A stretch of 64,000 bases of DNA, taken from an uncultured Pseudomonadales bacterium (GTDB taxonomy: Bacteria; Pseudomonadota; Gammaproteobacteria; Pseudomonadales; Cellvibrionaceae). The stretch lies in the NCBI GenBank assembly GCA_947487765.1, contig CANKXO010000007.1, positions 22,180-86,179 of the forward strand, given 5' to 3'. The notes under the pieces are model-generated. The model saw only the letters and a program-made list of their open reading frames with translations. It searched no databases and was not told the origin of the DNA. Below, piece by piece: positions 26,664 through 48,588 of the stretch. Position numbers and translations under genes: made by a program. Position 1 is the first letter of the stretch. Each line of letters opens with the position of its first letter.

Positions 26664-26740
26664 ACGTCGATAGCTTAACTGGCAAAAGCTCTGGCCTCCA
26701 AAACCAGGCGATGTAGGTTCGAACCCTACTCGGCGTGCCA
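26664..26740 (+). tRNA. tRNA-Trp (CCA)
   Basis: acceptor acgtcga/tcggcgt (one G-U), D-stem gctt/aagc, anticodon loop ctCCAaa (stem has a C-A mismatch), T-arm gtagg-ttcgaac-cctac, discriminator G + encoded CCA. Confidence 0.75.
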
Positions 26741-26749
26741 AACATAAAT

Positions 26750-26909
26750 GCAGTGATAGCCCCAATAGATCGGCAGATTTTTGTTTCATTGAAGATCAGG
26801 AGAGTGCTGGTTCGACAGCTTTGTAGGAGCAAAAGTTGGACGCTTGTATAGGCGGTCGAGAAGCGATTATGCACAAGGATGTGTATAACAATTCCGGCTC
26901 ACTGCACCA
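26750..26909 (+). ncRNA. Long tRNA-like RNA L2. Acceptor-like 7/7 pairing + discriminator + CCA encloses about 145 nt, including a degenerate T-arm-like hairpin and an internal module paralogous to the one in L5
   Basis: gcagtga (26750-56) pairs with tcactgc (26899-905), followed by a-cca; internal gctg-gttcga-cagc; the block tttgtaggagcaaaagttggacgc...ggcggtcgagaagcgattatgcacaagga aligns with the L5 insert. Confidence 0.5.
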
Positions 26910-26916
26910 GTTTTAT

Positions 26917-26993
26917 TTCGGTGTGAAGCAGAGTGGTAATGCGCCTGACTGTTAATCAGGAGTTCGTTGGTTCGACCCTAGCCGCCGGAGCCA
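26917..26993 (+). tRNA. tRNA-Asn (GTT)-like (non-canonical D-arm)
   Basis: anticodon arm cctga-ctGTTaa-tcagg, T-arm gttgg-ttcgacc-ctagc, acceptor ttcggtg/cgccgga (G-U pairs), G + CCA. Confidence 0.55.
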
Positions 26994-27001
26994 ATTTTAT
27001 T

Positions 27002-27083
27002 GAGGGTGTTGAGCAGGTGGTGAGCTCAGCGGACTGTAAATTCGCCGGAAACTATGTAGGTTCGATTCCTTCCACCCTCACCA
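27002..27083 (+). tRNA. tRNA-Tyr (GTA)
   Basis: acceptor gagggtg/caccctc 7/7, D-stem gagc/gctc, anticodon gcgga-ctGTAaa-ttcgc, 10-nt variable region, T-loop ttcgatt, A + CCA. Confidence 0.8.
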
Positions 27084-27090
27084 AATTTCC

Positions 27091-27168
27091 GGGCCAATAG
27101 CATAATCGGTAAATGCCCCGGCCTCATAAGCCGGAGAAGGAGCGGTTCGAATCCGCCTTGGCCTACCA
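27091..27168 (+). tRNA. tRNA-Met/Ile2 (CAT)
   Basis: acceptor gggccaa/ttggcct, D gcat/atgc, anticodon ccggc-ctCATaa-gccgg, T-loop ttcgaat, A + CCA. Confidence 0.75.
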
Positions 27169-27186
27169 ATTAAATGATTAGTTAAT

Positions 27187-27261
27187 AGCGGTGTTGAGCA
27201 ATGGCTGCTTTCGGGTTTCATATGCCCGAGCTTGTTGGTTCGATTCCAACCACCGCAACCA
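27187..27261 (+). tRNA. tRNA-Met (CAT), second copy
   Basis: anticodon cgggt-ttCATat-gcccg, perfect T-arm gttgg-ttcgatt-ccaac, acceptor 6/7 (A-A at 1:72), A + CCA. Confidence 0.7.
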
Positions 27262-27265
27262 AATT

Positions 27266-27356
27266 GGAAGTGTGGCCGAGTGGTAAGGCAGCGGATTGCT
27301 AATCCGTACAGTGATAAATCGTTGCTGCATGAGTTCGAATCTCATCACTTCCTCCA
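27266..27356 (+). tRNA. tRNA-Ser (GCT), long variable arm
   Basis: ggaagtg...ggccgagtggtaaggc, anticodon gcgga-ttGCTaa-tccgt, long variable arm, T-arm atgag-ttcgaat-ctcat, acceptor 7/7, T + CCA; 91 nt. Confidence 0.9.
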
Positions 27357-27382
27357 AAATACTCCGGTGATGCAATTGGAAG

Positions 27383-27486
27383 GCAGGTTAAGGCTCCTGC
27401 AAAACCTGCATTCCCACCATCCATGGTGGTCACATAGCCCACTTAAAATCGGTTTGTTGCGAGTTCGACTCTCGCCGTCTGCATCA
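27383..27486 (+). ncRNA. Long tRNA-like RNA L4. Acceptor-like 6/7 pairing, a Cys-type T-arm (gcgag-ttcgact-ctcgc), a GCA-containing loop and a covarying internal hairpin; no encoded CCA. A degenerate paralogue lies at 26189-26310
   Basis: gcaggtt (27383-89) vs cgtctgc (27476-82); cctgcaaaacc loop; ccacc-atccat-ggtgg hairpin corresponds to acgcc-atccat-ggcg in the 26196-26251 copy (compensatory changes). Confidence 0.45.
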
Positions 27487-27574
27487 GTTTTTCGTGAGGT
27501 AATTCAATTAGCAGAATGCGATTTTCATAAAATCGGCGATAGTGGTGCAAGTCCACTCTTCACGACCGGTTAAT

Positions 27575-27648
27575 AGCAGCGTGGTGTAACGGTAACACAC
27601 CGGACTTTGACTTCGGTATTTCAGGTTCGAATCCTGGCGCTGTTGCCA
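27575..27648 (+). tRNA. tRNA-Gln (TTG)
   Basis: acceptor agcagcg/cgctgtt, D gtgt/acac, anticodon ccgga-ctTTGac-ttcgg, T-loop ttcgaat, G + CCA. Confidence 0.75.
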
Positions 27649-27688
27649 AATAGTATGTTGAGTAGGGTTCTAAAAATATTTAATTTTT

Positions 27689-27763
27689 GTGCGAGTGGCA
27701 GAATGATGATGCGCGGAACTGCAACTTCCGTTTACGCCGGTTTGATTCCGGCCTCGCACTCCA
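27689..27763 (+). tRNA. tRNA-Cys (GCA)
   Basis: acceptor gtgcgag/ctcgcac 7/7, anticodon cggaa-ctGCAac-ttccg, T-arm gccgg-tttgatt-ccggc, T + CCA; 3-bp D-stem as in E. coli tRNA-Cys. Confidence 0.8.
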
Positions 27764-27769
27764 AATTTT

Positions 27770-27914
27770 CTGGATATAGCACAGCCTAGTAGCGTGTTGG
27801 GTTTAACTAAAATACATCCAAGTATTTTGCCCTTCGGGTTCTTCGAAGTTCAAAACGTTCCAGACGTTTTGTGGAGCTCAAAGTTTGTGGGTTCAAACCC
27901 TGCTATCCAGACCA
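27770..27914 (+). ncRNA. Long tRNA-like RNA L3. Canonical acceptor (7/7), D-arm and T-arm + A + CCA, with an approximately 85-nt structured insert replacing the anticodon region
   Basis: ctggata/tatccag; D gcac/gtgt; T-arm gtggg-ttcaaac-cctgc; the insert contains a cc-ttcg-gg tetraloop hairpin and aaaacgt-tccag-acgtttt hairpin. Confidence 0.55.
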
Positions 27915-27926
27915 ATTAATTTAAAC

Positions 27927-28000
27927 GCGGTGTTGACCGAATGGTTAGGTACCTGCCTTCCAAGCAGAGGAAATGGGTTCGATTCCCATACACCGCTCCA
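27927..28000 (+). tRNA. tRNA-Gly (TCC)
   Basis: acceptor gcggtgt/acaccgc 7/7, anticodon loop ctTCCaa (4-5 bp stem), T-arm atggg-ttcgatt-cccat, T + CCA. Confidence 0.75.
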
Positions 28001-28008
28001 AAATTTAA

Positions 28009-28082
28009 TGAAGGTTGGCTTAGTGGCTGAGCACCGGACTTTTAATCCGGCTAGATGGGTTCGATCCCCATACCTTCAACCA
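28009..28082 (+). tRNA. tRNA-Lys (TTT)
   Basis: acceptor tgaaggt/accttca 7/7, D gctt/gagc, anticodon ccgga-ctTTTaa-tccgg, T-arm atggg-ttcgatc-cccat, A + CCA. Confidence 0.85.
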
Positions 28083-28116
28083 ATTACAATAAAACAACTA
28101 AAAGGAGATCGTATTA

Positions 28117-29312
28117 TGGCGATTAAAAAAGTATTGGCGCCGCATAAAGATCAGCGGTTGCCTGTAAAAATTTGGACGGATGATATTGATTACAGCACGC
28201 AGGCTCAGTTGAGTCGTGTAGCGAACTTACCATTCGTTTATAAGCATGTAGCAGCGATGCCTGATGTACATCTCGGAAAAGGCGCCACTGTTGGTTCAGT
28301 GATTGCAACCGATAAAGCTATTATCCCTGCAGCTGTGGGTGTGGATATTGGATGTGGAATGAATGCAGTGAGATTATCTATTAAAGCAAAAGATTTGCCT
28401 GATAGCCTAAAATTGATTCGAAACGGAATTGAATCAGTTGTACCTTTAGGTCCCGGAGGTCAACATCGTGACCCCAAAATTGCTGGTGGTCATGATATAT
28501 CAATGCGTCTATGTACTATTTTTGAAAAACACCCGAAGTTAAGTAAGCGCGTTAAAGTGAATGGGTTTGCGAAACAATTAGGAACGCTGGGCTCAGGAAA
28601 TCATTTCATTGAATTATGTTTAGATGAAAATGATGACGTGTGGATTATGTTGCATTCAGGGAGTCGTGGAGTTGGCAATAAAATCGGTATGTACTTTATC
28701 GAAATTGCTAAACGAGAAATGGAAAAATGGATGATTCACTTACCTGATAAAGACTTGGCTTATCTATCTGAAGGGTCAGAATATTATGATGACTATATTG
28801 AAGCAGTTTCTTGGGGGCAAGATTATGCGGCATTGAATCGCACGCATATGATGAATGCAGTAATGCTAGAACTACGTAAGTATTTACCTGCGTTTACAAT
28901 CACACAAGAGGCTATCAATTGCCACCATAATTATGTTGAAAAGGAAAATCATTACGGCAAAAACGTATGGGTAACGCGTAAAGGCGCAATCCGTGCGAGA
29001 AAGGATGATCTTGGTATTATTCCCGGGTCCATGGGTGATAAAAGTTTTATTGTTCGTGGTAAAGGTGAATCTGAATCATTTTGTTCTTGTTCCCATGGTG
29101 CGGGTCGACGATTGAGTCGTACTGCAGCTGCAAAAACTTTTTCCGTTGCTGATCTCGTATCAGCTACTGAAGGAATAGAATGTCGTAAAGACAGGGGTGT
29201 CATTGATGAAATTCCAATGGCATATAAGCCTATCGATAGCGTGATGGATAACCAAACTGATCTAGTGGATATAGTTCATACACTTCGACAAGTCGTCAAT
29301 GTAAAAGGCTAG
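28117..29312 (+). CDS. rtcB: RNA ligase RtcB (3'-phosphate/5'-OH RNA-splicing ligase family)
   Basis: AMPDVHLGKGATVGSV, GCGMN, GSGNHFIEL, HSGSRGVG, CSCSHGAGR; RBS aaggag 9 nt upstream of the ATG at 28117. The tracked ORF from 27885 is an artefactual extension across two tRNAs. Confidence 0.9.
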
Positions 29313-29358
29313 AAAGGACTTAGCCTTTTCTTTCACCTCTTTCCTCATTTTTAATTTA

Positions 29359-29432
29359 GCCCAATTGGCATAGTGGTCGTGCAGCTGCTTTGTAAGCAGC
29401 AGAGACAGGTTCAATTCCTGTATTGGGCTCCA
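29359..29432 (+). tRNA. tRNA-Thr (TGT)
   Basis: acceptor gcccaat/attgggc 7/7, D gcat/gtgc, anticodon gctgc-ttTGTaa-gcagc, T-arm acagg-ttcaatt-cctgt, T + CCA. Confidence 0.85.
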
Positions 29433-29441
29433 GTTTACATC

Positions 29442-29593
29442 GCCTGATTAGTTCAATTGGACTTAGAGCATCCGCCTACGACAATTTTGCAGGAGCAAAA
29501 ATTGGGCGTCTATAGAGGCGATCGTGAAACGATAATGTGCAGGACGCATATTACAAACGGGAAGATGCGGGTTCGAATCCTATTCAGGTGCCA
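29442..29593 (+). ncRNA. Long tRNA-like RNA L5. Acceptor 6/7 + G + CCA, canonical D-arm, T-arm-like gcggg-ttcgaat, and an approximately 95-nt insert paralogous to the L2 insert
   Basis: gcctgat vs ttcaggt; D gttc/gagc; insert aattttgc-agga-gcaaaaatt hairpin, atcgt-gaa-acgat hairpin; aligns with L2 (tttgYaggagcaaaaRttggRcg...ggcgRtcgNgaaRcgatWatg). Confidence 0.5.
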
Positions 29594-29601
29594 AATTTAT
29601 T

Positions 29602-29678
29602 ACTCTCGTAGCTTAATTGGATAGAGCGTCTGTCTTCGAAACAGAACGGTGTTGGTTTGATTCCAACCGAGAGTGCCA
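29602..29678 (+). tRNA. tRNA-Arg (TCG)
   Basis: acceptor actctcg/cgagagt 7/7, D gctt/gagc, anticodon tctgt-ctTCGaa-acaga, T-arm gttgg-tttgatt-ccaac, G + CCA. Confidence 0.85.
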
Positions 29679-29917
29679 ATAATTATTATTAATAAACCCG
29701 AGAATCTTTAGGTGTGGCCGTGGCAGATTGATAAATTTACCGGGAGTAAATTTAGACGCGGGAGAGAAGCGACGGCGCCCGTAGGGGTTGTAACATGGAT
29801 GTTACAAACCAATGTGCGCTTAACTTTGGCTTAAGTGCCCTTGGTTTTTGGAAAGGGGAGTTCAGGTCGCATCGGTCACCCCTAAAGGTTTTTACTAATA
29901 GAAAAGGAGGTCAAGCA

Positions 29918-30211
29918 ATGAGACTTGCTATAACGCGATCAGGTTTTTATAACGCTGATCTTTATTGCGCTGATACTCGTACAGCTAAAAGAGTGTTGCG
30001 TGAAAAAAATATTTCCATATTGGCTATCGACTATTATCTAGTTGGCCAGGGAAATGGTTGCGATATTATTGATTGGGCTAAAAGAAATGCAGTTTTGCCT
30101 AATTTTATCGTTGTTATTGAACGTAATCGCAACAAACGAGCCTTATTATCGAATACATTACGAAATATAGGTTATCGCTCTGGTGATGATACTACCTTTA
30201 TAAGGCATTAA
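29918..30211 (+). CDS. Hypothetical small protein (97 aa), alternating beta/alpha pattern (receiver/Rossmann-like?)
   Basis: RBS aaaggagg 7 nt before ATG 29918; MRLAITRSGFYNADLY...ISILAIDYYL...NFIVVIERN; the longer tracked ORF from 29795 lacks an RBS. Confidence 0.5.
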   Translation: MRLAITRSGFYNADLYCADTRTAKRVLREKNISILAIDYYLVGQGNGCDIIDWAKRNAVLPNFIVVIERNRNKRALLSNTLRNIGYRSGDDTTFIRH

Positions 30212-30250
30212 ATTTAGTTAAAGCGACCACTATGATTAATTGAGAATAGG

Positions 30251-30814
30251 ATGATGAATATTCAAATTTTGCAGCTATCGAAGTCAGGTCACCCAATGTC
30301 TTGGGTGAACCGTGAAGAAGCCGCAACACTGTATGCAAAAAATAGGGTGTTATGGGAGCTGGGTGACGAAGTTATTCCAATTGTCGGCGGTATTAATCGC
30401 TTGGGCATTCAAAGTCGCTTCGATATGGCACCAATTATTGCTTGTGATGGTGATGTGAAACAACCTCGTTTACGACCATCGTTAAGTAATCGTATGCTGT
30501 TTCGCCGAGACGATTACCGATGCTTGTATTGTGGTGTTCAGTTTAATCACGACGGATTAACGCGGGACCATATTGTGCCGCGTATTCAAGGTGGTTTAGA
30601 TCGTTGGGAAAATGTGGTTGCTGCTTGTAAACGCTGTAATCACAGTAAGGGTGGTCGAACGCCAGAGCAGGCAGGGATCAAGCTATTGGCCATTCCATTT
30701 GTGCCGAATCCGTTTGAGTTTCTGTTTTTGGCAAATCGACATATTCTGGCTGACCAGATGGATTATCTTGCGACAAGCTTTTCGTCAAAGCGAGACTGGA
30801 AAAAAGTGGCTTAA
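30251..30814 (+). CDS. HNH endonuclease-domain protein
   Basis: CLYCG...DHIVPRIQGG...WENVVAACKRCNHSKGG (HNH with zinc-ribbon cysteines). Confidence 0.8.
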   Translation: MMNIQILQLSKSGHPMSWVNREEAATLYAKNRVLWELGDEVIPIVGGINRLGIQSRFDMAPIIACDGDVKQPRLRPSLSNRMLFRRDDYRCLYCGVQFNHDGLTRDHIVPRIQGGLDRWENVVAACKRCNHSKGGRTPEQAGIKLLAIPFVPNPFEFLFLANRHILADQMDYLATSFSSKRDWKKVA

Positions 30815-30834
30815 CTATTAAGCCACCCACATAT

Positions 30835-30862
30835 TTGGAATACAGGTATTAACCTGTATTCC
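30835..30862 (+). terminator. Strong hairpin after the HNH gene (11-bp stem, weak U-tract)
   Basis: ggaatacaggt-atta-acctgtattcc. Confidence 0.5.
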
Positions 30863-30991
30863 ATACCGATGTTTATACGTATGTTGGCGAAACAGCGGCT
30901 CTGGTTCTGAATGCCAGGCTGGCACAGTCATGTTTTATGTCCTGTGTACCGATTCACTAACACGTTAAACAGTATGCTCTGAAAAAGCATA

Positions 30992-31064
30992 GTTTTTGTA
31001 GCTCATAGGGTAGAGCAATCGACTCATAATCGATGGGTAGCAGGTTCGATTCCTGCCTCAAACA
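30992..31064 (+). tRNA. Degenerate tRNA-Met (CAT)-like gene (weak acceptor 5/7, no CCA)
   Basis: D gctc/gagc, anticodon atcga-ctCATaa-tcgat, perfect T-arm gcagg-ttcgatt-cctgc. Confidence 0.4.
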
Positions 31065-31084
31065 CAGTCAGTTTTAATAAACTG

Positions 31085-31127
31085 AAGGAAAAGCCGAGAG
31101 GCTGAGGTTCGAATCCTCATTTGGTCT
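31085..31127 (+). other. Isolated tRNA 3'-half fragment (variable arm + T-arm + 3' acceptor strand)
   Basis: gccgagaggc...tgagg-ttcgaat-cctca-tttggtc with no upstream 5' partner. Confidence 0.45.
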
Positions 31128-31424
31128 ACTAAACCAAATATAAAACAAGAGGCTCATAGCAACGTAATGCTGTTATAGATTATGTTGCGTTGACATTAAT
31201 ACCGTTAATGATGGGTTAAGGTATTGCGTAGTAAATAATAAGTTTACCTCACTATCAACAGCTAAGGATGGTGTCCTAGGGATGGGGATAATCAAGAGTG
31301 ATTAGGTTAGTGTGGAGCAACCGCTGTATTTGTCTACCCATTACATTTAAGTTATTTACCGTACTCATGGCAAATGGGCCTCGCCATTATAGTCATTGGA
31401 AGAAATAAATAAGGGAGAATAATA

Positions 31425-32576
31425 ATGATTCTTTGGAAAACAATCGATATTGCGGAACATGAACGTGTATTACTTTATGTCCGTGATCAATTTAAACAAG
31501 TGCTAGGCCCAGGTCGGCATCGTGTCTCGACCTTGAAGGGAAAAGTTCGCCAGGAAACCTATGATATTACCGAAGTAGTATTCAGGCATCCTAAAGAAAA
31601 ATTTTTGCTGTCACACTACCCAGAAAAACTGGCAATGCACCTTGAGCAGTTTGACTTAAAAGATACTGAAGTGGGCTTGTTATATCGAAATGGCCATTTA
31701 ATGAATGTGTTGGCACCTGGTAGTTTATTTACAGTTTGGAAAGGTGTTGAGGATATTCGTGTTGACGTTATCGATATTAATAACCACTATCAGATAGAAG
31801 AGTCTTTAATTGGCTTATTGGGGCGAGGCATTAAAATTGGTCAAAGCCGAGAAGTCGTTAATGCGATTGCTTATGCAGAGGTAGTTGATGAGCATGTAGG
31901 TTTATTGCTGGTTAACGGTAAGCTAGAAAAGATCTTGCAACCGGGTAGTTACGGCTTCTGGAAATATAACCGTTCAATTGCGGTTAAAATGCTTGATCTT
32001 CGTTTACAAGCAATGGAGGTTAGTGGCCAAGAGATTCTGACCAAAGATCGCGTGAGTTTGCGTATTAACTTAACTGGTAGTTATAAAATTAAAGATCCTC
32101 AAATTGTTGCCTCTAAGGTGAATGATTACGCAGGTTTTATCTATCGTGAGTTGCAATTAAGTTTGCGAGAAATTGTAGGCACACAATCATTAGATGGATT
32201 GTTAGAAGATAAAGATGCTTTAAATTCTGTAATTACTCAGAGTACACGAGAAAAATTAGCGGAATACGGTATTCAGTTAATGAGTGTCGGGGTTAAAGAT
32301 ATTATTTTACCTGGTGAAATGAAGCAGATTCTGAATCGAGTAGTAGAGGCGCAAAAAGAGGCTGAAGCTAATTTGATTAAGCGTCGTGAGGAAACTCAGG
32401 CAATGCGTTCATTACATAATGCTGCCAAGATGATGGAAAACAACCCTGTGTTGTTACGTTTAAAGGAATTAGAAGCATTAGAAAGAGTGACTGGGAAAAT
32501 CGATAAGATTTCTGTCTATGGTGGCCTTGATAGTGTTCTTAATGACTTGGTAAAACTGGCGCCGGTCAAAACCTAA
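31425..32576 (+). CDS. SPFH/band-7 domain protein (cytoplasmic, duplicated N-terminal beta-domain)
   Basis: SPFH core TKDRVSLRINLTGSYKIKDPQIVASKV...QLMSVGVKDIILPGEMKQILNRVVEAQKEAEANLIKRREETQAM; no N-terminal TM. Confidence 0.7.
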   Translation: MILWKTIDIAEHERVLLYVRDQFKQVLGPGRHRVSTLKGKVRQETYDITEVVFRHPKEKFLLSHYPEKLAMHLEQFDLKDTEVGLLYRNGHLMNVLAPGSLFTVWKGVEDIRVDVIDINNHYQIEESLIGLLGRGIKIGQSREVVNAIAYAEVVDEHVGLLLVNGKLEKILQPGSYGFWKYNRSIAVKMLDLRLQAMEVSGQEILTKDRVSLRINLTGSYKIKDPQIVASKVNDYAGFIYRELQLSLREIVGTQSLDGLLEDKDALNSVITQSTREKLAEYGIQLMSVGVKDIILPGEMKQILNRVVEAQKEAEANLIKRREETQAMRSLHNAAKMMENNPVLLRLKELEALERVTGKIDKISVYGGLDSVLNDLVKLAPVKT

Positions 32577-34531: not shown

Positions 34532-34638
34532 CTGCCTGTCTCCCTAATATAAATAAGGATAAATGTTGAGTGTTAAAAAAATGGATAATGATAGTTGTTA
34601 CAAGAACAAATAAAGAAGAGAAGTGCGCAAGATAAAAG

Positions 34639-34868
34639 GGTGCCAGCGTGCTCAATGTTTCCTTCGTAGAGCTCTTAGTACTGGATTGATCAACTCGACG
34701 CGGCACGCCCCTACTATCGCTCATTGACTTCATGGAAGTCATACCGCAATAGCGATAGTAGGGGCTGTGCCGCCCTATGAAGATCAGGCCAGTGACGCGT
34801 GTGTAGTCTATAAACCAGAACGGCGATGCACCGCTCAAATTGCAAGGTAGATAAGTCACGCTGACACC
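34639..34868 (-). ncRNA. Retron msr-msd non-coding RNA (a1/a2 inverted repeats flanking a long msd hairpin)
   Basis: a1 ggtgtcagcgtg (minus strand, plus coords 34857-34868) pairs with a2 cacgctggcacc (34639-34650) over 12-14 bp; about 72-nt near-perfect palindrome at 34701-34772 (cggcacgcccctactatcgct...agcgatagtaggggctgtgccg with inner gacttc-atg-gaagtc). Confidence 0.7.
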
Positions 34869-34931
34869 TGTGCTAGTATAGCAGTGTTGTTAGGTTTTAA
34901 AAGAGCGCTATTAAAATTCTTCATGATCTCT

Positions 34932-36572: not shown

Positions 36573-36643
36573 ATTTTTGCCTGAGAAATTTTTCTGAAAA
36601 TTATGAATCTAATGCGTTTTTGTATAATTTTTATATAGCGTTT

Positions 36644-40200: not shown

Positions 40201-41460
40201 ATGCAATTAAATAATAAAAAAGTTTACTTAGTTGGCGGAGCTGTCCGTGACGAACTATTGAATCGCCCAGTTTCAGATCGAGACTGGGTGGTGATTGGTG
40301 TGACTCCAGAAATGTTGATTAAGCAAGGCTATCGGCAAATCGGTAGTGACTTTCCTTGCTTTTTGCATCCTGAAACCAAAGATGAATATGCACTGGCACG
40401 TACGGAGAAAAAATCAGGAAGCGGCCATACAGGGTTTGTGTGTGATTTTAGTCCTGAGGTAACTCTCGAAGAAGATTTATCTCGGCGCGACCTCACCATC
40501 AATGCCATTGCTAAAACAGTAGAGGGTGAATATGTTGATCCTTATGGAGGCAGAGAAGATTTAGAGAATCGAATATTGCGCCATGTATCAGATGCATTTG
40601 CTGAAGACCCATTGCGTGTGTTACGCGTTGCTCGTTTTGCCGCTCGCTACGCAGAGTTAGGTTTTACGGTACACCCAAGTACATTAGCCTTAATGGCTCA
40701 GTTAGTCAGTTCTGGTGAACTATCAGAATTAACACCAGAGCGAGTCTGGAAAGAAATGTCTCGTGCATTAACAGAGCCTCGTCCTAGTGAGTTCTTTCGT
40801 GTGCTTCGTGCCTGTGGTGCTTTGTCGGTACTATTACCCGAAGTAGATTGCTTATTCGGTGTTCCTCAGCCACCCCAACATCATCCTGAAATTGATACCG
40901 GCGATCATGTAATGATGGTGGTTGATATCGCTAAAGAGCGCTTTGATTCTATTAATATCACTTGGGCTGCCTTAATGCATGATTTAGGAAAAGGGCTGAC
41001 GCCTGAAGAGGAGTGGCCCAAGCATATCCGTCATGAAATTAAAGGTGTGCCATTAGTTGAGGCTGTTTGCGAGCGTTATAAAGTTCCGCGTGATTTTAAA
41101 ACATTAGCAATGTTAGTTTCTGAGCACCATTTGCGTTGCCATAAATTATTAGAGATGAGACCAAAATCCATTATGCGCTTATTAGAAGCGCTGGATGCTT
41201 TTAGGCGGCCAGAGAGGGTTAAATATTTTGCGCAAGCCTGCGAAGCCGACGCCAGAGGTCGCTTAGGTTTAGAAGATAGAGATTACCCACAATCGTCACT
41301 ATTAATAAAATGCGGTGAAGTGGGGAAGGATATAGATATTAAGCCTTTACTGGATGAAGGCTACCAAGGCTTGAAGCTGGCGGAACAGATTCGCCGTTTA
41401 CGACTAGGGGCGATTAAGAGGTTTATGGCAAATTATCGAAAAGAAATATTAGGGAAATAA
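40201..41460 (+). CDS. cca: CCA-adding tRNA nucleotidyltransferase with HD domain
   Basis: LVGGAVRDELLNRPVSDRDWVV, TERKSGSGHTGF, RRDLTINAIA, LRVLRVARFAARY, HHPEIDTGDH, collinear with E. coli Cca. Confidence 0.9.
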   Translation: MQLNNKKVYLVGGAVRDELLNRPVSDRDWVVIGVTPEMLIKQGYRQIGSDFPCFLHPETKDEYALARTEKKSGSGHTGFVCDFSPEVTLEEDLSRRDLTINAIAKTVEGEYVDPYGGREDLENRILRHVSDAFAEDPLRVLRVARFAARYAELGFTVHPSTLALMAQLVSSGELSELTPERVWKEMSRALTEPRPSEFFRVLRACGALSVLLPEVDCLFGVPQPPQHHPEIDTGDHVMMVVDIAKERFDSINITWAALMHDLGKGLTPEEEWPKHIRHEIKGVPLVEAVCERYKVPRDFKTLAMLVSEHHLRCHKLLEMRPKSIMRLLEALDAFRRPERVKYFAQACEADARGRLGLEDRDYPQSSLLIKCGEVGKDIDIKPLLDEGYQGLKLAEQIRRLRLGAIKRFMANYRKEILGK

Positions 41461-41464
41461 TAAG

Positions 41465-42367
41465 ATGAGCAGTAAAACTCAGCATTTAATTAAACAAGGT
41501 TTACTCAAGTCTCCGCCTAAGTTTTTGGAAACCGGGGTACAGTATGAAGTGGTTATGGGCTCTATTGCCTATGGTGTTGCTGAAGATCACTCTGATATGG
41601 ATATTTATGGTTTTGCCATTCCACCACGAGACTGGGTATTTCCTCACTTAAGAGGAGAAATTTCAGGTTTTGATGAATCTGGCCCTCAATTTGAGCAAGT
41701 GCAGCAACATCATATGTTGGATAAGTCTGCACGTGGAGGTAAAGGCAAGGAGTATGATTTGGTCATCTATTCGATTATTAAATACTTTCGCTTACTGATG
41801 GATAATAACCCTAATATTATTGATTCTTTATTTGTGCCGCGCAATTGTGTGCTTTATAGCACTGCTGTTGGTGAGATGGTCCGCGAAAACCGTCATCTAT
41901 TCTTGCATAAAGGTTGTTGGGCAAAGTTCAAAGGTTATGCTTATTCACAAGTACATAAAATGCGAACAAAGGTTCCAGAAGGTGGCCGTCAAGCGATCAT
42001 TGATGAATATGGTTATGATGTAAAATTTGCCTATCATGTTGTTCGGTTACTGAATGAAGTCGAGCAAATATTAATTGAAAAAGACCTTGATTTGGCACGA
42101 AATAAAGAGCAATTAAAATCGATACGCCGTGGCGAATGGACACAGCAAGCCATTGAAGAATATTTTACTAATAAAGAAAAACAACTTGAGCAAACTTATC
42201 TGGACAGTGCCTTGCCTGCGTTACCGGATAAAGCAGCTATTAAAAAGTTATTGTTGGAATGCTTGGAGCATCATTACGGCTCATTATCTGAATGTATTGT
42301 TCAGGAAGATGAGGCTTTGATCGCTATTCGAGAAATTGAAACGATAGTGCAACGCTTGAAAAAGTAA
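41465..42367 (+). CDS. Pol-beta superfamily nucleotidyltransferase (predicted RNA-repair NTase)
   Basis: GS-x10-D-x-D motif MGSIAYGVAEDHSDMDIYGF; start is 4 nt after the cca stop (likely co-transcribed). Confidence 0.6.
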   Translation: MSSKTQHLIKQGLLKSPPKFLETGVQYEVVMGSIAYGVAEDHSDMDIYGFAIPPRDWVFPHLRGEISGFDESGPQFEQVQQHHMLDKSARGGKGKEYDLVIYSIIKYFRLLMDNNPNIIDSLFVPRNCVLYSTAVGEMVRENRHLFLHKGCWAKFKGYAYSQVHKMRTKVPEGGRQAIIDEYGYDVKFAYHVVRLLNEVEQILIEKDLDLARNKEQLKSIRRGEWTQQAIEEYFTNKEKQLEQTYLDSALPALPDKAAIKKLLLECLEHHYGSLSECIVQEDEALIAIREIETIVQRLKK

Positions 42368-42864
42368 GCCTTTATTTTTTAATTGAACCACTTTGTATTT
42401 GTTAACCTATAAAAATACTCATTAATATAGTTGTAGTTAATTTTTGTAAGGAAATGTTATAAAAATTATGAATAAAGATATTGATATATAATTTTAATAT
42501 GACTATAGTGCGCGCAGTTTTTACAAATCACCTTTAATCAATACTCTACAGGAGGCTCAAGTATGTTGTATCTAAATAATCAAATCGCATTGTTGGGTTT
42601 GTCTGTATCTTGTTCTTATAGCTAACATTTTTGTTAACGCTATAGCTATCTTTCAGATAAATCCTCTTAGCTAAACGTCTTAACTGTACGTTATAGGTAG
42701 TTTTGCGTAATTTTTTAAGCTAATTCTTGTTGGTCAAATTCTATCGACCATACATTTGCATTTTTTTATGCGGTTAGCGATTAATCTGTATCGCCTTTTG
42801 TTTCAACTCGAAAATATTTTTTGAGGGGGCAATGTCGTGCCTAAAAACATGAGTAGAAATTTTA

Positions 42865-44091
42865 ATGGACACTTATATTAAAAAAATTAATACGCTGGTT
42901 GATCGGCAGGCGAGAGTTGTTATCTTTGATGATAATTGGCTTGAAGATTCTGCTGTTGAGCAGTTGAAAAGAACAATGGAATTAGACGGCATGTTGAGAG
43001 GTATCGGTATGCTTGACCTGCACCCAGGTAAGGGGCAACCAATTGGTGCAGCGTTTGTAACGTGTAATGCCATCTATCCTCACCTTGTCGGGAGTGATAT
43101 CGGTTGTGGTATGGGATTATGGGATTTAGATATTCCAGTCCGAAAAGTTAAATTGGATAAATGGGAGAAGCAATTAGTTGGCCTTGATGAATTTTGGGAT
43201 GGATATCCAAATGATCGGTTACAGAAAAAAGATATTGATACAACTGATACTTTTTTATTATCTGAAAACGGTAAGTTAGGAACCATCGGTGGTGGTAATC
43301 ATTTTGCAGAGCTACAGAAAATTGACAGTATTATTGATTCTGTTGCGTTTAAGCAGTCAGGTCTCAATCATCAGTCTGTTAAATTACTAGTGCATAGTGG
43401 TTCGAGAGGTCTGGGCCAAAAAATTCTCAGGCGCTATGTTGATGATTTTGGCTCAAGCGCTATTTCGACAAATGAACAACCTGAACTTGGTCAACATTAT
43501 ATTCAGCAACATAACTACGCTATCAGATGGGCTGAAGTGAATCGTGATGTCATTGCAGACCGGTTCTGTGAACAGCTCAAAGCGCAGCGGAGATTGGTAT
43601 TGGATGTTGCTCACAACAGGGTTGACCCATTGGCTGAGGAATACGCTGAAGCGATGGGGTTATTAACAAAGAGGCTGCCAGGAAATGGCAACAAAAAATA
43701 CTGGATACACCGTAAAGGCGCAAGCCCAACTAATGAAGGGTTGGTCATGATACCGGGGTCTCGTGGTAGCTTGAGCTACCTTGTTAAGCCTCGTTTGTCG
43801 AATATTCATAGTCTTTCTCAAGGTGGTTTTTCATTGGCCCATGGTGCAGGACGTAAATGGAAGCGAAGTGATGTTCGAGGACGATTAGAAAGCCGCTATA
43901 AAGTAAAAGATTTGGAAAAAACAGCCTTGGGTAGTCGAGTTATTTGTAAGCAACGCGACTTACTGTATGAGGAAGCACCTCAGGCTTACAAAAATATAAG
44001 TCATGTAATAAGTGATTTGGTTGGCGCTGGTCTTGTCGATATTGTTGCAACATTTAAACCGTTACTGACTTATAAGACACGGAGGGTATAA
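42865..44091 (+). CDS. rtcB: RtcB-family RNA ligase, second copy (RtcB2-type, paired with PrfH)
   Basis: GSDIGCGMG, GGGNHFAELQ, HSGSRGLG, AHGAGRKW. Confidence 0.85.
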   Translation: MDTYIKKINTLVDRQARVVIFDDNWLEDSAVEQLKRTMELDGMLRGIGMLDLHPGKGQPIGAAFVTCNAIYPHLVGSDIGCGMGLWDLDIPVRKVKLDKWEKQLVGLDEFWDGYPNDRLQKKDIDTTDTFLLSENGKLGTIGGGNHFAELQKIDSIIDSVAFKQSGLNHQSVKLLVHSGSRGLGQKILRRYVDDFGSSAISTNEQPELGQHYIQQHNYAIRWAEVNRDVIADRFCEQLKAQRRLVLDVAHNRVDPLAEEYAEAMGLLTKRLPGNGNKKYWIHRKGASPTNEGLVMIPGSRGSLSYLVKPRLSNIHSLSQGGFSLAHGAGRKWKRSDVRGRLESRYKVKDLEKTALGSRVICKQRDLLYEEAPQAYKNISHVISDLVGAGLVDIVATFKPLLTYKTRRV

Positions 44092-44093
44092 AT

Positions 44094-44789
44094 ATGAAAA
44101 TAGTGAAAGGAGAAAATGAAAAAAATATTGCATGGTTGCAAGTAACCTCTGGTCAAGGGCCGAAAGAATGCGCTTGGGTTGTCGCACGATTAGAGCCGAT
44201 CATTTTGCAAGAGGCTAAAAAGGCTGATCTGTCTGCTGAGCGCATTGAAGCTTTGGCTTTTGATAAATTGCTACGGAAGCAAAATCTTATCGAGACTGAT
44301 GCTTATTTATCGATATTAATCCGCTTGCAAGGGAGGGGAGTCGACGAGTTTGTTCAATCTTGGCAGGGAACGATTAAATGGCAAGGCGAAAGCCCCTATC
44401 GTCCCAAGCATAAGCGATTTAACTGGTTTGTCGGTGTTGCAACACTTGCTATACCAGAGAAGCAAAACGTTGAGTTAAGTAGTTTATCTAAAGATATTGA
44501 TTTTGAATCAATGCGAACAAAGGGGCCAGGTGGGCAACATGTAAATAAAACGAATAGCGCGATTCGTGCGACGCATCGACCAACAGGTTTGCAAGTACGG
44601 GTTGAAACGGACCGTTCTCAGCATAGGAACAAGCAAATAGCATTGGAGCGTTTGCAAATGTTGCTAGCTCAAAGAGGTAGTAATGAGAAAAAATCAATAG
44701 AGCATGCACGCTGGCTGCAACACTATGATGTGAAAAGGGGCAGTCCTACACGCATATTTTATGGGAAAGGATTTACCGAAAACCATTGA
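44094..44789 (+). CDS. prfH: Peptide-chain-release-factor homologue PrfH
   Basis: GGQ motif RTKGPGGQHVNKTNSAIRATHRPTGLQV, short RF lacking full codon-recognition domains, immediately downstream of rtcB2. Confidence 0.8.
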   Translation: MKIVKGENEKNIAWLQVTSGQGPKECAWVVARLEPIILQEAKKADLSAERIEALAFDKLLRKQNLIETDAYLSILIRLQGRGVDEFVQSWQGTIKWQGESPYRPKHKRFNWFVGVATLAIPEKQNVELSSLSKDIDFESMRTKGPGGQHVNKTNSAIRATHRPTGLQVRVETDRSQHRNKQIALERLQMLLAQRGSNEKKSIEHARWLQHYDVKRGSPTRIFYGKGFTENH

Positions 44790-44917
44790 TCTATTAAAAA
44801 ACTGGAGTAATGAAATGAATAATCAACAAACCCCGTTGGGCATTTATCGAAATAAGAAGCGAATTTTTACGCCTTCCAAATGGCAGGTTGCTGTAATGAA
44901 CGAAAGAGAATACGAAG

Positions 44918-45874
44918 ATGAAACAGGAAGAGTTAAGCGAGGTGTTGGATTGCCTAGGGAATGAAAGAACACTTTTTTACTACTTTAAAGATCGCTATTG
45001 CTTAGATTTAATTGGCTGGTATATGGATAAAACAAAAAGTCGGTCATTGTTGATTAGGGATTTAAATAAAAGCGGCTTGAAAAATATTCTTCAGAAACCA
45101 GTCATGAGAGAGATTATTAAAAATTGCGGCCATGGTTTTTTGACAAAAGAAATCATAAAAGCCTTCTGGTTCCATGACTTTTTAACGTTCACTTTAACAT
45201 TGGATCATTGGGGAGAAGGGGATAGAGGTTATGACCAAACCTCCAGAAACCAAAAGAATTTAGTGTTGCAGCTGAATTTTGACAATAAACATACGAGTGA
45301 ATATCAGCGTTTATTAAAGCCTGACGACCACTATGGGCCTTTTGAGTGCTGGTGTCACCCTGTTAGGCAGGATGCTAAAAAGACGATGTCGTGGGTAAGA
45401 ATGGATTTCGACTTTACAACCAATGAAGCGCTAATCGAAGAGGTTCAAAATGATTGGTTGCGACAGGCAAATGGAGGATTAACTCGTGTTAAAAAAAGTT
45501 TATCGAGAAAATCAACGCTTAAGCCAGGTGATATTGTTAGCGGCATTCATTGTGAATATAAAGACTTGGAATATTATGTTGAAGAAGTACTGAAGCCTTA
45601 TCGAAAGCTATGGGCAGAAGCTTCTATGCTGGCAGCCATACAATTTATACGTAATGAGTTAGGTATTAATACGATTTACTATCATAGCTTCAGTACAGGT
45701 AATAAGTTGAAGAAGGTTTATGGTTTGCCACCTAGATCAATGTATACACAATTGCCTAAAAAATTTGGTTTTGAATTGACTGAAGAAGCACCTGAGTTTT
45801 TAGCAAGAGATAAACATGCTAAGCGTTACATTAAGGCCATTGAAAACCCGCGATGGTATCGTATGGCGTTATAA
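44918..45874 (+). CDS. Hypothetical protein (318 aa) downstream of prfH
   Basis: intact ORF with no recognisable motif by eye. Confidence 0.5.
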   Translation: MKQEELSEVLDCLGNERTLFYYFKDRYCLDLIGWYMDKTKSRSLLIRDLNKSGLKNILQKPVMREIIKNCGHGFLTKEIIKAFWFHDFLTFTLTLDHWGEGDRGYDQTSRNQKNLVLQLNFDNKHTSEYQRLLKPDDHYGPFECWCHPVRQDAKKTMSWVRMDFDFTTNEALIEEVQNDWLRQANGGLTRVKKSLSRKSTLKPGDIVSGIHCEYKDLEYYVEEVLKPYRKLWAEASMLAAIQFIRNELGINTIYYHSFSTGNKLKKVYGLPPRSMYTQLPKKFGFELTEEAPEFLARDKHAKRYIKAIENPRWYRMAL

Positions 45875-48105: not shown

Positions 48106-48588
48106 GTGGGTGCTATGTCTACACGTTGGGGAAAATATGATCGACAAATTCTAGAGCTTCTACAGCGGGATGCATCGCTATCAGTGGGTGAGGTGGCTGA
48201 GCGAATTGGTGTATCAAAATCTGCCTGTTGGCGACGAATACAAAAGTTAGAGCAAGAGAATGTCATTAGAGAAAAAGTGGCATTGCTAGATCAAGAACAA
48301 CTTAACTTACCCCTTACCGTTTATATTGTTGTGCGGACAAACCAGCACAATGATCAATGGTCACAGCAATTCCAAGAGGTTATAGATTCTCTCCCTGAAA
48401 TCCTTGAAGCATACCGTATGAGTGGTGATCTCGATTACCTGATTAAGGCGGTGGTGACTGATATGCCTGGATATGACAGGCTCTATAAAAAAATTATTAA
48501 AGCCAATTTGTTTGATGTAAGTTCTAGCTTTGTGATGGAAACGATGAAAAGTACTACACAACTTCCTTTAAATTATCTTAAAACTTAA
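48106..48588 (+). CDS. Lrp/AsnC-family transcriptional regulator
   Basis: HTH LSVGEVAERIGVSKSACWRRIQKLE plus RAM domain. Confidence 0.85.
   Translation: MGAMSTRWGKYDRQILELLQRDASLSVGEVAERIGVSKSACWRRIQKLEQENVIREKVALLDQEQLNLPLTVYIVVRTNQHNDQWSQQFQEVIDSLPEILEAYRMSGDLDYLIKAVVTDMPGYDRLYKKIIKANLFDVSSSFVMETMKSTTQLPLNYLKT

What the first reader, a model, noticed from the sequence alone, without database searches (positions are those of the whole stretch)
42865..45874. RtcB2-PrfH ribosome-repair module followed by a conserved-looking unknown 318-aa gene
PrfH is a release-factor homologue with GGQ but without canonical stop-codon recognition, and it lies immediately after a second RtcB. This pairing is characteristic of the module reported to rescue ribosomes whose 16S rRNA was cut by colicin-E3-type ribotoxins and to religate the rRNA. 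The 318-aa ORF 130 nt downstream has no recognisable motif and may be a third component or the cognate toxin or sensor.
Basis: partly seen in the sequence, partly recalled or inferred. Interest (0 to 1): 0.6.

Follow-up and report, generated by a model that had tools for sequence, protein, structure and literature searches.

The report
RtcB2-PrfH ribosome repair plus new partner
The window carries the known two-gene system that rescues and re-ligates toxin-cut ribosomes, followed by a third gene from an undescribed protein family that sits next to RNA-ligase and ribosome-rescue genes in many unrelated bacteria, so it is probably a missing accessory part of such repair systems.

Summary
RtcB2 (42865-44091), PrfH (44094-44789) and a 318-aa ORF, "U318" (44918-45874), lie on the + strand. 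RtcB2 and PrfH pass curated NCBIfam cut-offs, and PrfH matches solved PrfH structures. That module is already known.

The new part is U318. It is a real, compact family (about 870 clusters at 50% identity, ~300-335 aa, no fusions) with no Pfam, NCBIfam, PHROG or PADLOC model.

In 79 species-level loci it has an RtcB within about 6 kb on the same strand in 52:
- RtcB2-PrfH-U318 in ~20 loci, in two separate U318 clades.
- RbfA-like-RtcB1-U318-small basic protein.
- HNH-(Band7)-U318-ArfB-RtcB1, often behind long tRNA arrays.

U318 genes also carry an SD-preceded upstream ORF overlapping their start: 46 of 79 versus 3 of 225 other genes.

My reading is that U318 is an RtcB-linked accessory, probably an enzyme, of translation-apparatus repair. 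Its chemistry is unknown. The "third component" idea is supported; "toxin" or "sensor" is not.

The parts
42865..44091 (+). rtcB2: PrfH-associated RtcB-family RNA ligase, 408 aa
   Evidence: PF01139 at 224 bits. NF007153 at 487 bits and TIGR03073 at 423 bits, both above cut-off. The motifs DIGCG, GGGNHF, HSGSRG and HGAGR are visible in the translation. 39-83% identical orthologues precede prfH in about 20 loci.
44094..44789 (+). prfH: release-factor homologue H, 231 aa, with GGQ, without RF domain 1, without the CgPrfH-type C-terminal tail
   Evidence: TIGR03072 at 207.6 bits, above the 166.65 cut-off, aligning to RF2 positions 111-311 only. Best PDB hits are PrfH 9mor (E 1e-41) and 7sa4. The alignment stops at residue 206 of the 231-aa CgPrfH.
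44815..44964 (+). Candidate leader/upstream ORF (49 codons, MNNQQTPLGIYRNKK...), preceded by GGAG and overlapping the U318 start by 47 nt in another frame
   Evidence: Its first ~9 codons are conserved with third-position changes across relatives. An ORF of this kind overlaps the start of 46 of 79 U318 genes versus 3 of 225 other genes in the same loci, with consistent geometry. No stable RNA structure and no Rfam match.
44918..45874 (+). U318: member of an undescribed RtcB-associated protein family, GNAT-like core without the acetyl-CoA P-loop motif
41465..42367 (+). Context: RlaP-family nucleotidyltransferase (RNA-ligase-associated Pol-beta NTase)
   Evidence: PF10127 at 69.6 bits. The Cca-RlaP pair also lies upstream of U318 in L001-L005, L008 and L073.
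40201..41460 (+). Context: multifunctional CCA-adding/repair enzyme
   Evidence: NF008137 at 621.5 bits, above the 451 cut-off.
26664..32576 (+). Context: tRNA array (14 tRNA genes) interleaved with RtcB1 (28149-29312), a 138-aa ORF, an HNH gene (30251-30814) and a Band-7/SPFH gene (31425-32576). The same gene families flank U318 directly in other genomes.
   Evidence: The window's RtcB1 is 58-64% identical to the RtcBs adjacent to U318 in about 30 loci, and its HNH and Band7 genes match those beside U318. tRNA arrays lie upstream of HNH-Band7-U318-RtcB in L022, L024, L038, L039, L042 and L073.

Best explanation
The region is a three-gene unit. Its first two genes are the known RtcB2-PrfH module. 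By homology to the E. coli system, PrfH recognises a ribosome whose 16S rRNA was cut in the decoding centre and releases the nascent peptide. RtcB2 then re-ligates the 16S rRNA.

The third gene, U318, belongs to an undescribed family that is a dedicated partner of RtcB ligases and of GGQ peptidyl-tRNA hydrolases (PrfH or ArfB). I propose it is an accessory enzyme of the RNA-repair step acting on the same substrate, the damaged or re-sealed small subunit or a tRNA. It would use a GNAT-like transferase fold with a non-canonical donor site. Its likely role is to modify or prepare the repaired site, or otherwise make RtcB repair productive.

Its synthesis appears to be gated by a short upstream ORF that overlaps its start codon. 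That would tie its expression to the state of translation.

Shown here: gene identities, conserved synteny in several independent arrangements, fold, invariant residues, and enrichment of the upstream ORF. Inferred: co-transcription, a role in the same pathway, enzymatic activity, and the regulatory role of the upstream ORF.

Sub-probabilities:
- RtcB2-PrfH identity: 0.95.
- U318 functionally linked to RtcB-based repair: 0.75.
- U318 is an enzyme: 0.55.
- U318 is a group transferase using the GNAT-like cleft: 0.3.
- The upstream ORF regulates U318 translation: 0.5.
For: Family assignments above curated cut-offs.

U318 has an RtcB within about 6 kb in 52 of 79 species-level loci, and all 55 RtcB ORFs are on the same strand. 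The gene directly upstream is RtcB in 21 loci and PrfH in 18. Two RtcB types only 25-29% identical to each other are involved.

Two different GGQ hydrolases are involved: PrfH in about 20 loci, and ArfB (NF006718, 146 bits against a 100-bit cut-off) in 8. An RbfA-like protein recurs in 12 loci.

The PrfH arrangement occurs in two distant U318 clades and in different phyla. By my own rough estimate, not a computation, chance would give less than one RtcB-adjacent locus in 79.

The structure model is confident and has a GNAT-like core. About 17 near-invariant polar or aromatic residues lie on the central strands and following helices: Q107, R110, H147, R161, D163, E174, E175, Q177, D179, H256, K265, Y276 and others.

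No + strand terminator is predicted between prfH and U318. The upstream ORF is enriched (46 of 79 against 3 of 225, Fisher p 3e-29) and overlaps the start as ATGA in three Desulfobacterota loci.

In Anabaena, the gene families that make up this island (tRNA L-array, HNH, slipin/Band-7, RtcB, and GNATs) form one translational-stress regulon (PMC8421152, PMC10272220).
Against: All evidence for U318's role comes from gene context and a predicted fold. There are no experimental data.

About 19 of 79 loci show U318 without RtcB, PrfH or ArfB nearby, for example Zooshikella, Microbulbifer and Teredinibacter. Some of these are short contigs.

Published work finds RtcB2 and PrfH sufficient in E. coli and calls the operon two-component (PMC9304027, PMC9223846). 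U318 is therefore not essential to the core reaction and occurs with only a minority of modules.

The GNAT link exists only at fold level, with moderate Z (at most 8.7) over at most 143 of 318 residues. No GNAT HMM or profile hit was found and the acetyl-CoA motif A is absent.

Loci are not phylogenetically independent, so the Fisher p-value for the upstream ORF overstates significance. My ORF calls in the loci are naive.
Confidence: 0.6

Rival explanations
1. U318 is a small-molecule detoxifying acyltransferase, for example one acting on an aminoglycoside-like or other ribosome-targeting compound. It would be grouped with repair genes only because all respond to translational stress.
Against: The acetyl-CoA motif A is absent from the whole family and no GNAT HMM matches. 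The very tight, co-oriented adjacency to RtcB, often within 25-100 nt, and to PrfH or ArfB in several arrangements argues for a shared macromolecular substrate rather than mere co-regulation.
Confidence: 0.12
2. U318 is a non-catalytic adaptor or chaperone. It might activate RtcB in the manner of archease, or hold the cut 16S rRNA ends or the 30S subunit for ligation.
For: The association is with the ligase rather than with any one rescue factor (52 of 79 loci with RtcB against about 29 with a GGQ factor). It co-occurs with an RbfA-like 30S-binding-type protein. Some members have an ~80-aa Lys/Arg-rich N-terminal extension typical of RNA or ribosome binders. The canonical cofactor motif is missing.
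Against: About 17 near-invariant charged or polar residues (His, Asp, Glu, Arg, Lys, Tyr) across 337 members look more like an active site than an interface. There is no similarity to archease.
Confidence: 0.15
3. U318 is a toxin or effector, for example a GNAT-type tRNA-modifying toxin or the 'cognate toxin' suggested by the first reader, and the neighbouring genes counteract its damage.
For: GNAT-fold toxins that acetylate aminoacyl-tRNA exist and are countered by peptidyl-tRNA hydrolase (my own knowledge, not checked here). In RtcB1-type loci a small conserved basic protein (s82) follows U318 and could in principle be an antidote.
Against: U318 is twice the size of GNAT toxins and lacks their acetyl-CoA motif. 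There is no RHH antitoxin upstream, and in the window the upstream gene is prfH. There are no secretion, Rhs, CdiA or colicin domains. It is absent from plasmids, phages and viral contigs. s82 is absent from the window-type loci.
Confidence: 0.05
4. U318 is functionally unrelated to repair. It is a hitch-hiking neighbour kept by synteny within a variable genomic island.
For: About a quarter of loci show U318 with none of the repair genes nearby. The window island also contains an evidently unrelated insertion, a retron type XIII set.
Against: Linkage recurs in at least four different gene orders, with two RtcB types and two GGQ hydrolases, across Pseudomonadota, Desulfobacterota and MAGs labelled Bacteroidota and Patescibacteria, always on the same strand.
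Confidence: 0.08

Closest known systems
E. coli RtcB2-PrfH ribosome rescue and repair operon (Tian et al. 2022, PMC9304027; Maviza et al. 2022, PMC9223846; PMC13166195)
   Same: Same two families above curated cut-offs, same gene order and tight coupling (2-nt spacing), GGQ present, RF domain 1 absent.
   Different: The published system is described as a two-gene operon. Here and in about 20 other species a third conserved gene with its own leader ORF follows prfH. The host is an uncultured marine Cellvibrionaceae-like gammaproteobacterium (nearest loci), and the module sits in a larger RNA-repair and tRNA island.
PrfH-CT subfamily (Capnocytophaga gingivalis PrfH, PMC12829566)
   Same: Same length (231 aa), and CgPrfH is the best PDB match.
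   Different: The window protein aligns only to residues 6-206 of CgPrfH. Its extra length comes from an N-terminal extension and an internal insertion, not from the basic C-terminal tail that defines PrfH-CT. It should therefore behave like the EcPrfH type.
Accessory genes of RFH-RtcB systems listed by Burroughs & Aravind 2019 (PMC6514570): TPR protein, Pol-beta NTase, ZnR plus charged-helix protein, charged helical protein
   Same: [quoted passage not shown] An RlaP NTase is present upstream in the window.
   Different: None of the four described accessories fits U318, which is an alpha/beta GNAT-like protein with no zinc ribbon and no TPR. I could not read their supplementary lists or the 2016 paper, so an unnamed listing cannot be excluded.
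Long tRNA-array (L-array) operons and the TrcR translational-stress regulon of Anabaena (PMC8421152, PMC10272220)
   Same: A tRNA array of 14 genes with an HNH gene and RtcB. Slipin/Band-7 and GNAT genes belong to the same stress regulon in Anabaena.
   Different: Here the components are physically clustered in a proteobacterium, together with Cca, RlaP and RtcB2-PrfH. No TrcR-like repeats were found. U318 is not mentioned in those papers.
GNAT acyltransferase superfamily (RimI/RimJ/RimL, aminoglycoside acetyltransferases and others)
   Different: No sequence-level relationship. Motif A (Q/RxxGxG/A) is absent. The protein is about 318 aa, with an extra N-terminal region that has no structural match and a ~50-residue helical insertion.
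Pnkp/Hen1 RNA repair (repair plus protective 2'-O-methylation). This is an analogy only, from my own knowledge and a mention in PMC12776372.
   Same: An RNA ligase system accompanied by a second enzyme that modifies the repaired RNA.
   Different: No homology. Whether U318 modifies RNA at all is untested.

Membership tests
RtcB2 (PrfH-associated RtcB, TIGR03073 / NF007153) | Score above the curated HMM cut-off | tested here: met
   NF007153 at 487.4 bits (cut-off 407); TIGR03073 at 423.1 bits (cut-off 271.8).
RtcB2 (PrfH-associated RtcB, TIGR03073 / NF007153) | RtcB catalytic and metal-binding motifs, including the GMP-accepting His in HGAGR | tested here: met
   DIGCG, GGGNHF, HSGSRG and HGAGR are visible in the translation. 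The motif definitions come from my own knowledge of RtcB.
RtcB2 (PrfH-associated RtcB, TIGR03073 / NF007153) | Encoded immediately upstream of prfH in one operon | tested here: met
   The stop at 44091 and the prfH start at 44094 are on the same strand. The same order holds in about 20 loci.
RtcB2 (PrfH-associated RtcB, TIGR03073 / NF007153) | Ligates 16S rRNA cut at A1493/G1494 in the 30S subunit | not testable with these tools
   This is a biochemical property shown for EcRtcB2 (PMC9304027).
PrfH / RFH (TIGR03072) | Score above the curated HMM cut-off, and best match to solved PrfH | tested here: met
   207.6 bits against a 166.65 cut-off. 9mor at E 1.2e-41 and 7sa4 at E 6.2e-40 rank ahead of all RF1/RF2 chains.
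PrfH / RFH (TIGR03072) | GGQ motif present; N-terminal RF domain 1 absent | tested here: met
   GPGGQ is in the translation. The 231-aa protein aligns to RF2 profile positions 111-311 only.
PrfH / RFH (TIGR03072) | Peptide release only on ribosomes damaged in the decoding centre | not testable with these tools
   Shown for EcPrfH (PMC9304027).
PrfH-CT subfamily (dual-activity PrfH) | Conserved basic C-terminal tail beyond the EcPrfH core | tested here: not met
   The alignment to CgPrfH ends at its residue 206 of 231, and the window protein ends 3 residues later.
GNAT acyl-CoA N-acyltransferase superfamily (for U318) | GNAT core fold | tested here: met
GNAT acyl-CoA N-acyltransferase superfamily (for U318) | Acetyl-CoA pyrophosphate-binding motif A (Q/R-x-x-G-x-G/A) | tested here: not met
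   No position carries the motif in more than 17 of 337 family members.
GNAT acyl-CoA N-acyltransferase superfamily (for U318) | Detectable sequence or profile similarity to GNAT families | tested here: not met
   No GNAT Pfam hit in 28 members at E <= 10. No PDB profile hit. hhalign against RimI gives probability 0.8%.
GNAT acyl-CoA N-acyltransferase superfamily (for U318) | Acyl-CoA-dependent acyl transfer | not testable with these tools
   Needs biochemistry.
GNAT-type toxin-antitoxin toxins (TacT/AtaT-like) | ~170-aa GNAT with an acetyl-CoA motif, paired with an upstream RHH antitoxin | tested here: not met
   U318 is 318 aa and lacks motif A. The upstream gene is prfH or rtcB. The family description comes from my own knowledge.
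ArfA (for the small protein s82 that follows U318 in RtcB1-type loci) | Match to an ArfA profile or to ArfA chains in ribosome structures | tested here: not met
   No Pfam hit. The PDB profile search gives only uL4 at E 3.1.
L-array tRNA operon island | Long tRNA gene array with linked HNH and rtcB genes | tested here: met
   14 tRNA genes at 26664-31065, with RtcB1 and an HNH gene interleaved. The definition follows PMC8421152.
L-array tRNA operon island | TrcR-type repressor and direct-repeat operators | tested here: inconclusive
   No shared motif among the island's intergenic regions beyond AT-rich 11-mers. I did not search for a TrcR homologue.

The most novel reading that the evidence does not exclude
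U318 catalyses a previously unknown chemical step in repair of the translation machinery. One possibility is acyl or aminoacyl transfer, from a non-CoA donor such as aminoacyl-tRNA, onto the re-ligated 16S rRNA or tRNA junction or a nearby ribosomal component. This would protect it from re-cleavage, as Hen1 does in Pnkp/Hen1 repair. Its synthesis would be switched on by a leader ORF that senses impaired translation. RtcB-based ribosome repair would then be a three-step rescue, re-seal and modify pathway in many environmental bacteria.
Probability: 0.2. Interest if true: 0.85.

Novelty: new variant of a known kind. Interest (0 to 1): 0.66.

Why it matters
RtcB2-PrfH is currently the only known system that reverses ribotoxin damage to the ribosome, and it is modelled as two proteins.

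A conserved third protein travels with two kinds of RtcB and with two kinds of GGQ release factor (PrfH, ArfB), and it has its own translation-coupled leader ORF. This suggests that the repair pathway has an unrecognised step or control point in many bacteria. The family has no model or name in the libraries searched here, and it offers a direct experimental handle.

The work also ties PrfH-type ribosome repair physically to long tRNA arrays, HNH, Band-7, Cca and RlaP genes in one island. That supports the idea of an integrated rescue kit for the translation apparatus.

Tried and rejected
1. PD-(D/E)xK nuclease idea for U318, from weak REase_II / RE_SinI hits (E 0.03-0.04). Rejected: the scores are sub-threshold and the predicted fold is GNAT-like.
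2. s82, the small basic protein after U318 in RtcB1-type loci, as ArfA. I recalled a resemblance, but Pfam and a PDB profile search do not support it.
3. An RNA attenuator or riboswitch in the prfH-U318 spacer. The MFE is no better than shuffles (z +1.6), there is no convincing consensus structure, and Rfam finds only tRNAs in 25-47 kb.
4. A shared operator motif among the island's intergenic regions. Only AT-rich 11-mers were found.
6. Mobile-element origin. No U318 relatives in PLSDB plasmids, INPHARED phages or IMG/VR.
Uninformative.
8. AFDB fold search. The library was unavailable.
9. Exact-sequence look-up of the window protein to name the source organism. It is not on record, and the cluster carries no name.
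10. Burroughs & Aravind 2016 and the 2019 supplement. Neither is held.
Full report
**1. Observation**

The + strand carries three consecutive ORFs exactly as described:
- RtcB family, 42865-44091, 408 aa.
- A release-factor homologue, 44094-44789, 231 aa, starting 2 nt after the previous stop.
- A 318-aa ORF, 44918-45874, after a 128-nt spacer. I call this U318.

The first ORF matches PF01139. It exceeds the curated cut-offs of NF007153 (487 against 407 bits) and of TIGR03073 'release_rtcB' (423 against 272 bits). Its translation shows the RtcB motifs DIGCG, GGGNHF, HSGSRG and HGAGR (the motif definitions are from my own knowledge).

The second ORF exceeds the PrfH equivalog cut-off (TIGR03072, 207.6 against 166.65 bits) and aligns only to RF2 profile positions 111-311. 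It contains GPGGQ. Its best PDB matches are the two solved PrfH proteins, 9mor and 7sa4, ahead of all RF1/RF2 chains. It lacks the basic C-terminal tail of the dual-function PrfH-CT subfamily: the alignment ends at residue 206 of the 231-aa CgPrfH (PMC12829566).

A first RtcB, 25% identical, lies at about 28149-29312, so 'second RtcB' is correct.

The RtcB2-PrfH part is therefore a standard member of a characterised system (PMC9304027, PMC9223846, PMC13166195).

**2. The 318-aa gene is a real, undescribed family**

U318 has no significant hit in Pfam, NCBIfam, PHROGs, PADLOC or PDB sequences. This holds for the single sequence, for a family profile, and for 28 members scanned permissively.

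It has 780 homologues in a 5.8-billion-sequence collection, all unnamed or 'hypothetical'. It has 872 cluster representatives (465 at E <= 1e-30) among 1.84 billion. Nearly all are 300-335 aa, so it is a single-architecture family without fusions. A few members carry an ~80-aa Lys/Arg-rich N-terminal extension.

The family is absent from plasmid, phage and viral-contig collections. Named hosts are mostly marine or sediment Gammaproteobacteria (Cellvibrionaceae, Microbulbifer, Zooshikella, Thiodiazotropha, Beggiatoa-like, Woeseiaceae, Methylococcales) and Desulfobacterota.

**3. Linkage test**

I fetched 79 species-level loci, searched them with the window's proteins, and clustered all neighbouring ORFs.

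- RtcB is the most frequent neighbour. It is present in 52 of 79 loci, and all 55 RtcB ORFs are on the U318 strand.
- PrfH follows in 20 loci, plus one truncated contig.
- The gene directly upstream of U318 is RtcB in 21 loci (gaps 24-305 nt) and PrfH in 18 (gaps 81-229 nt, with one at 651).

Several distinct arrangements exist:
- (A) RtcB2-PrfH-U318, as in the window.
- (B) RbfA-like protein-RtcB1-U318-small basic protein 's82'. The RbfA-like protein scores 32.8 bits on PF02033, just below the gathering score.
- (C) HNH-U318-ArfB-(Band7)-RtcB1. The ArfB scores 146 bits on NF006718 against a 100-bit cut-off, and a divergent HTH gene is present.
- (D) HNH-Band7-U318-RtcB1.
- (E) U318 alone.

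The RtcBs of arrangements B-D are 58-64% identical to the window's own RtcB1 and only 26-29% identical to RtcB2.

In a neighbour-joining tree of U318, arrangement A appears in two separate clades. One is the Cellvibrionales-type clade containing the window. The other is a Desulfobacterota clade nested among RtcB1-associated members. The tree is midpoint-rooted and has no bootstrap support values.

U318 is thus linked to prfH elsewhere, so the refutation criterion fails. Its primary association is with RtcB ligases, and it pairs with two different GGQ peptidyl-tRNA hydrolases. With one or two RtcB genes per genome, chance would put RtcB within a ~12-gene window in well under one of 79 loci. That figure is my own estimate, not a computation.

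About 19 loci show none of these partners.

**4. Structure**

The canonical acetyl-CoA motif A (Q/RxxGxG/A) is not conserved anywhere in 337 family members.

About 17 residues are essentially invariant, including Q107, R110, H147, W159, R161, D163, E174, E175, Q177, D179, W232, G261, K265, Y276 and H256 (97%). They lie on the central strands and the helices that follow. By my inspection, the segment 'PPRSLYxxLPxxFGF' resembles GNAT motif B with its catalytic Tyr, and H256 sits at the end of the strand that carries the general base in some GNATs. This is inference only.

I therefore describe U318 as having a GNAT-like fold but do not file it as a GNAT acetyltransferase.

**5. A conserved leader ORF**

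The prfH-U318 spacer contains GGAG followed by an ATG ORF of 49 codons (44815-44964). It overlaps the U318 start by 47 nt in another frame.

Among gammaproteobacterial relatives its first ~9 codons are conserved (MNNQQTPLG or Mx[YF]FxxP[LI]G). The changes fall at third codon positions, and the rest of the ORF is not conserved. A stand-alone U318 (L014) has the same motif, so the ORF belongs to U318 rather than to prfH.

I counted SD-preceded ATG ORFs of at least 25 codons that overlap the start of the downstream gene out of frame. They occur at 46 of 79 U318 genes against 3 of 225 other genes with comparable upstream gaps in the same loci (Fisher p 3e-29). The loci are related, so this p-value is an overestimate, but the feature occurs in all arrangements.

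In three Desulfobacterota loci the upstream ORF's stop overlaps the U318 ATG as ATGA. The alternative frames of U318's 5' end are not depleted of stop codons. No stable or conserved RNA structure and no Rfam family is present in the spacer. No + strand terminator is predicted between prfH and U318.

I infer translational coupling or control of U318 by this leader. How it works is unknown.

**6. Wider context**

The three genes close a long + strand island:
- 14 tRNA genes (26664-31065), interleaved with RtcB1, a 138-aa ORF, an HNH gene and a Band-7/SPFH gene.
- The CCA-adding enzyme (40201-41460) and an RlaP nucleotidyltransferase (41465-42367).
- RtcB2-PrfH-U318.

In L073 the same families are contiguous: tRNAs-HNH-tRNA-Band7-Cca-RlaP-RlaP paralogue-U318-RtcB1. 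In L022 and L024, 20 tRNA genes precede HNH-Band7-U318-RtcB1.

Long tRNA arrays with linked HNH and rtcB genes are known as L-arrays. In Anabaena the array, HNH, slipin/Band-7, rtcB and GNAT genes form one regulon induced by translational stress (PMC8421152, PMC10272220).

This context fits U318 acting in repair of the translation apparatus. It leaves open whether the substrate is 16S rRNA or tRNA.

**7. Explanation and rivals**

Best explanation: the known PrfH and RtcB2 rescue-then-religate pathway, plus U318 as an RtcB-linked accessory. U318 is probably an enzyme using a GNAT-like cleft with a non-canonical donor, and it is expressed under the control of a leader ORF. Overall confidence is 0.6, with sub-probabilities given in the structured field.

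Rivals:
- A non-catalytic adaptor or activator (0.15).
- A small-molecule detoxifying acyltransferase that is merely co-regulated (0.12).
- An unrelated hitch-hiker (0.08).
- A toxin (0.05).

'Toxin' and 'sensor' have no support.

**8. Comparison with the literature**

The experimental papers treat rtcB2-prfH as a two-component operon and mention no third gene.

Burroughs & Aravind (PMC6514570) list four accessory genes around RFH-RtcB: a TPR protein, a Pol-beta NTase, a zinc-ribbon protein with a charged helix, and a charged helical protein. None matches an alpha/beta GNAT-like protein. I could not read their supplement or the 2016 survey, so an unnamed prior listing cannot be excluded.

No paper in the searchable library links ArfB with RtcB in an operon.

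**9. Verdict**

The RtcB2-PrfH call is correct and already known. The added value lies in the third gene. It is a compact, rare and strongly conserved family that travels with RtcB, PrfH, ArfB and an RbfA-like protein, has a GNAT-like fold lacking the CoA motif, and carries a conserved overlapping leader ORF. I rate this a new variant of a known kind, a three-component RtcB repair module, with interest 0.66.

All functional statements about U318 rest on gene context and a predicted structure, so experiments are needed.

Noticed in passing
window 26664-31065 (+): An array of 14 tRNA genes: Trp, Asn, Tyr, four with anticodon CAT, Ser, Gln, Cys, Gly, Lys, Thr and Arg. It is interleaved with RtcB1 (28149-29312), a 138-aa ORF with no family hit (29795-30211), an HNH gene (30251-30814) and a Band-7 gene (31425-32576). 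It resembles the 'L-array' tRNA operons described in cyanobacteria. Arrays of up to 20 tRNAs precede HNH-Band7-U318-RtcB in L022, L024, L038, L039, L042 and L073.
   Followed up: partly
window 32750-39820 (-): A complete retron type XIII-like gene set on the opposite strand: RT (32750-34531; PADLOC RT_XIII, 623 bits), a SWIM protein (34932-36572; SWIM_XIII, 771 bits) and a WGR/HEAT protein (36644-39820; WGR_XIII, 1030 bits). In the 85%-identical relative L001, Band7 abuts Cca directly. This ~7.5-kb cassette therefore looks like an insertion of a defence system into the RNA-repair island. I did not search for a retron ncRNA.
   Followed up: partly
L029, L031, L044, L053, L054, L058, L064-L066, L076, L079 and others, directly after U318; e.g. 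L079:11096-11344: A small conserved basic protein, 's82', of about 55 conserved residues with the motif RNPxAxSPLLRKGGxHxKSKxGxR. It follows U318 in about 18 RtcB1-type loci and has no family assignment. A resemblance to ArfA was tested and not supported.
   Followed up: yes
L062:192-638 and 11 other loci, upstream of RtcB1-U318: A ~148-aa protein with weak but consistent similarity to ribosome-binding factor RbfA (PF02033 at 32.8 bits against a gathering score of 34.7; TIGR00082 at 26 bits). It precedes RtcB1-U318. This hints that the RtcB1-type systems also act on the 30S subunit.
   Followed up: partly
L008 (Candidatus Endobugula sertula) 7951-8814 and 10001-10942: Two U318 paralogues (55% and 63% identical to the window protein) lie about 1.2 kb apart, after RtcB2-PrfH.
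   Followed up: no
L004, L067 (U318 split); L010, L034, L048 (RtcB split): In several MAG loci U318 or RtcB appears as two adjacent ORFs. These are either frameshift assembly errors or pseudogenes.
   Followed up: no
L002:6790-7557, L003:4876-5643, L073:8865-9632: A second RlaP-like nucleotidyltransferase (255 aa, motif GSRAWGF...DSDxD) sits between RlaP and the RtcB/U318 genes in some relatives. The window has a 497-nt AT-rich gap (42368-42864) at that position, with only promoter-like matches.
   Followed up: partly
proteins P0190, P0196, P0228 (also P0234, P0259): Some U318 family members have an ~80-aa N-terminal extension very rich in Lys/Arg (for example ...KPRKKKKRKKNKFPLPE). This could be an RNA- or ribosome-binding tail, or a mis-called start.
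   Followed up: no
window 46252-47946 (-) and 48106-48588 (+): Downstream of U318 lie a convergent 564-aa class-V aminotransferase / cysteine-desulfurase-like gene and an Lrp/AsnC regulator. Both are syntenic in L001 and L003 but not in more distant loci, so they are probably unrelated to the module.
   Followed up: partly
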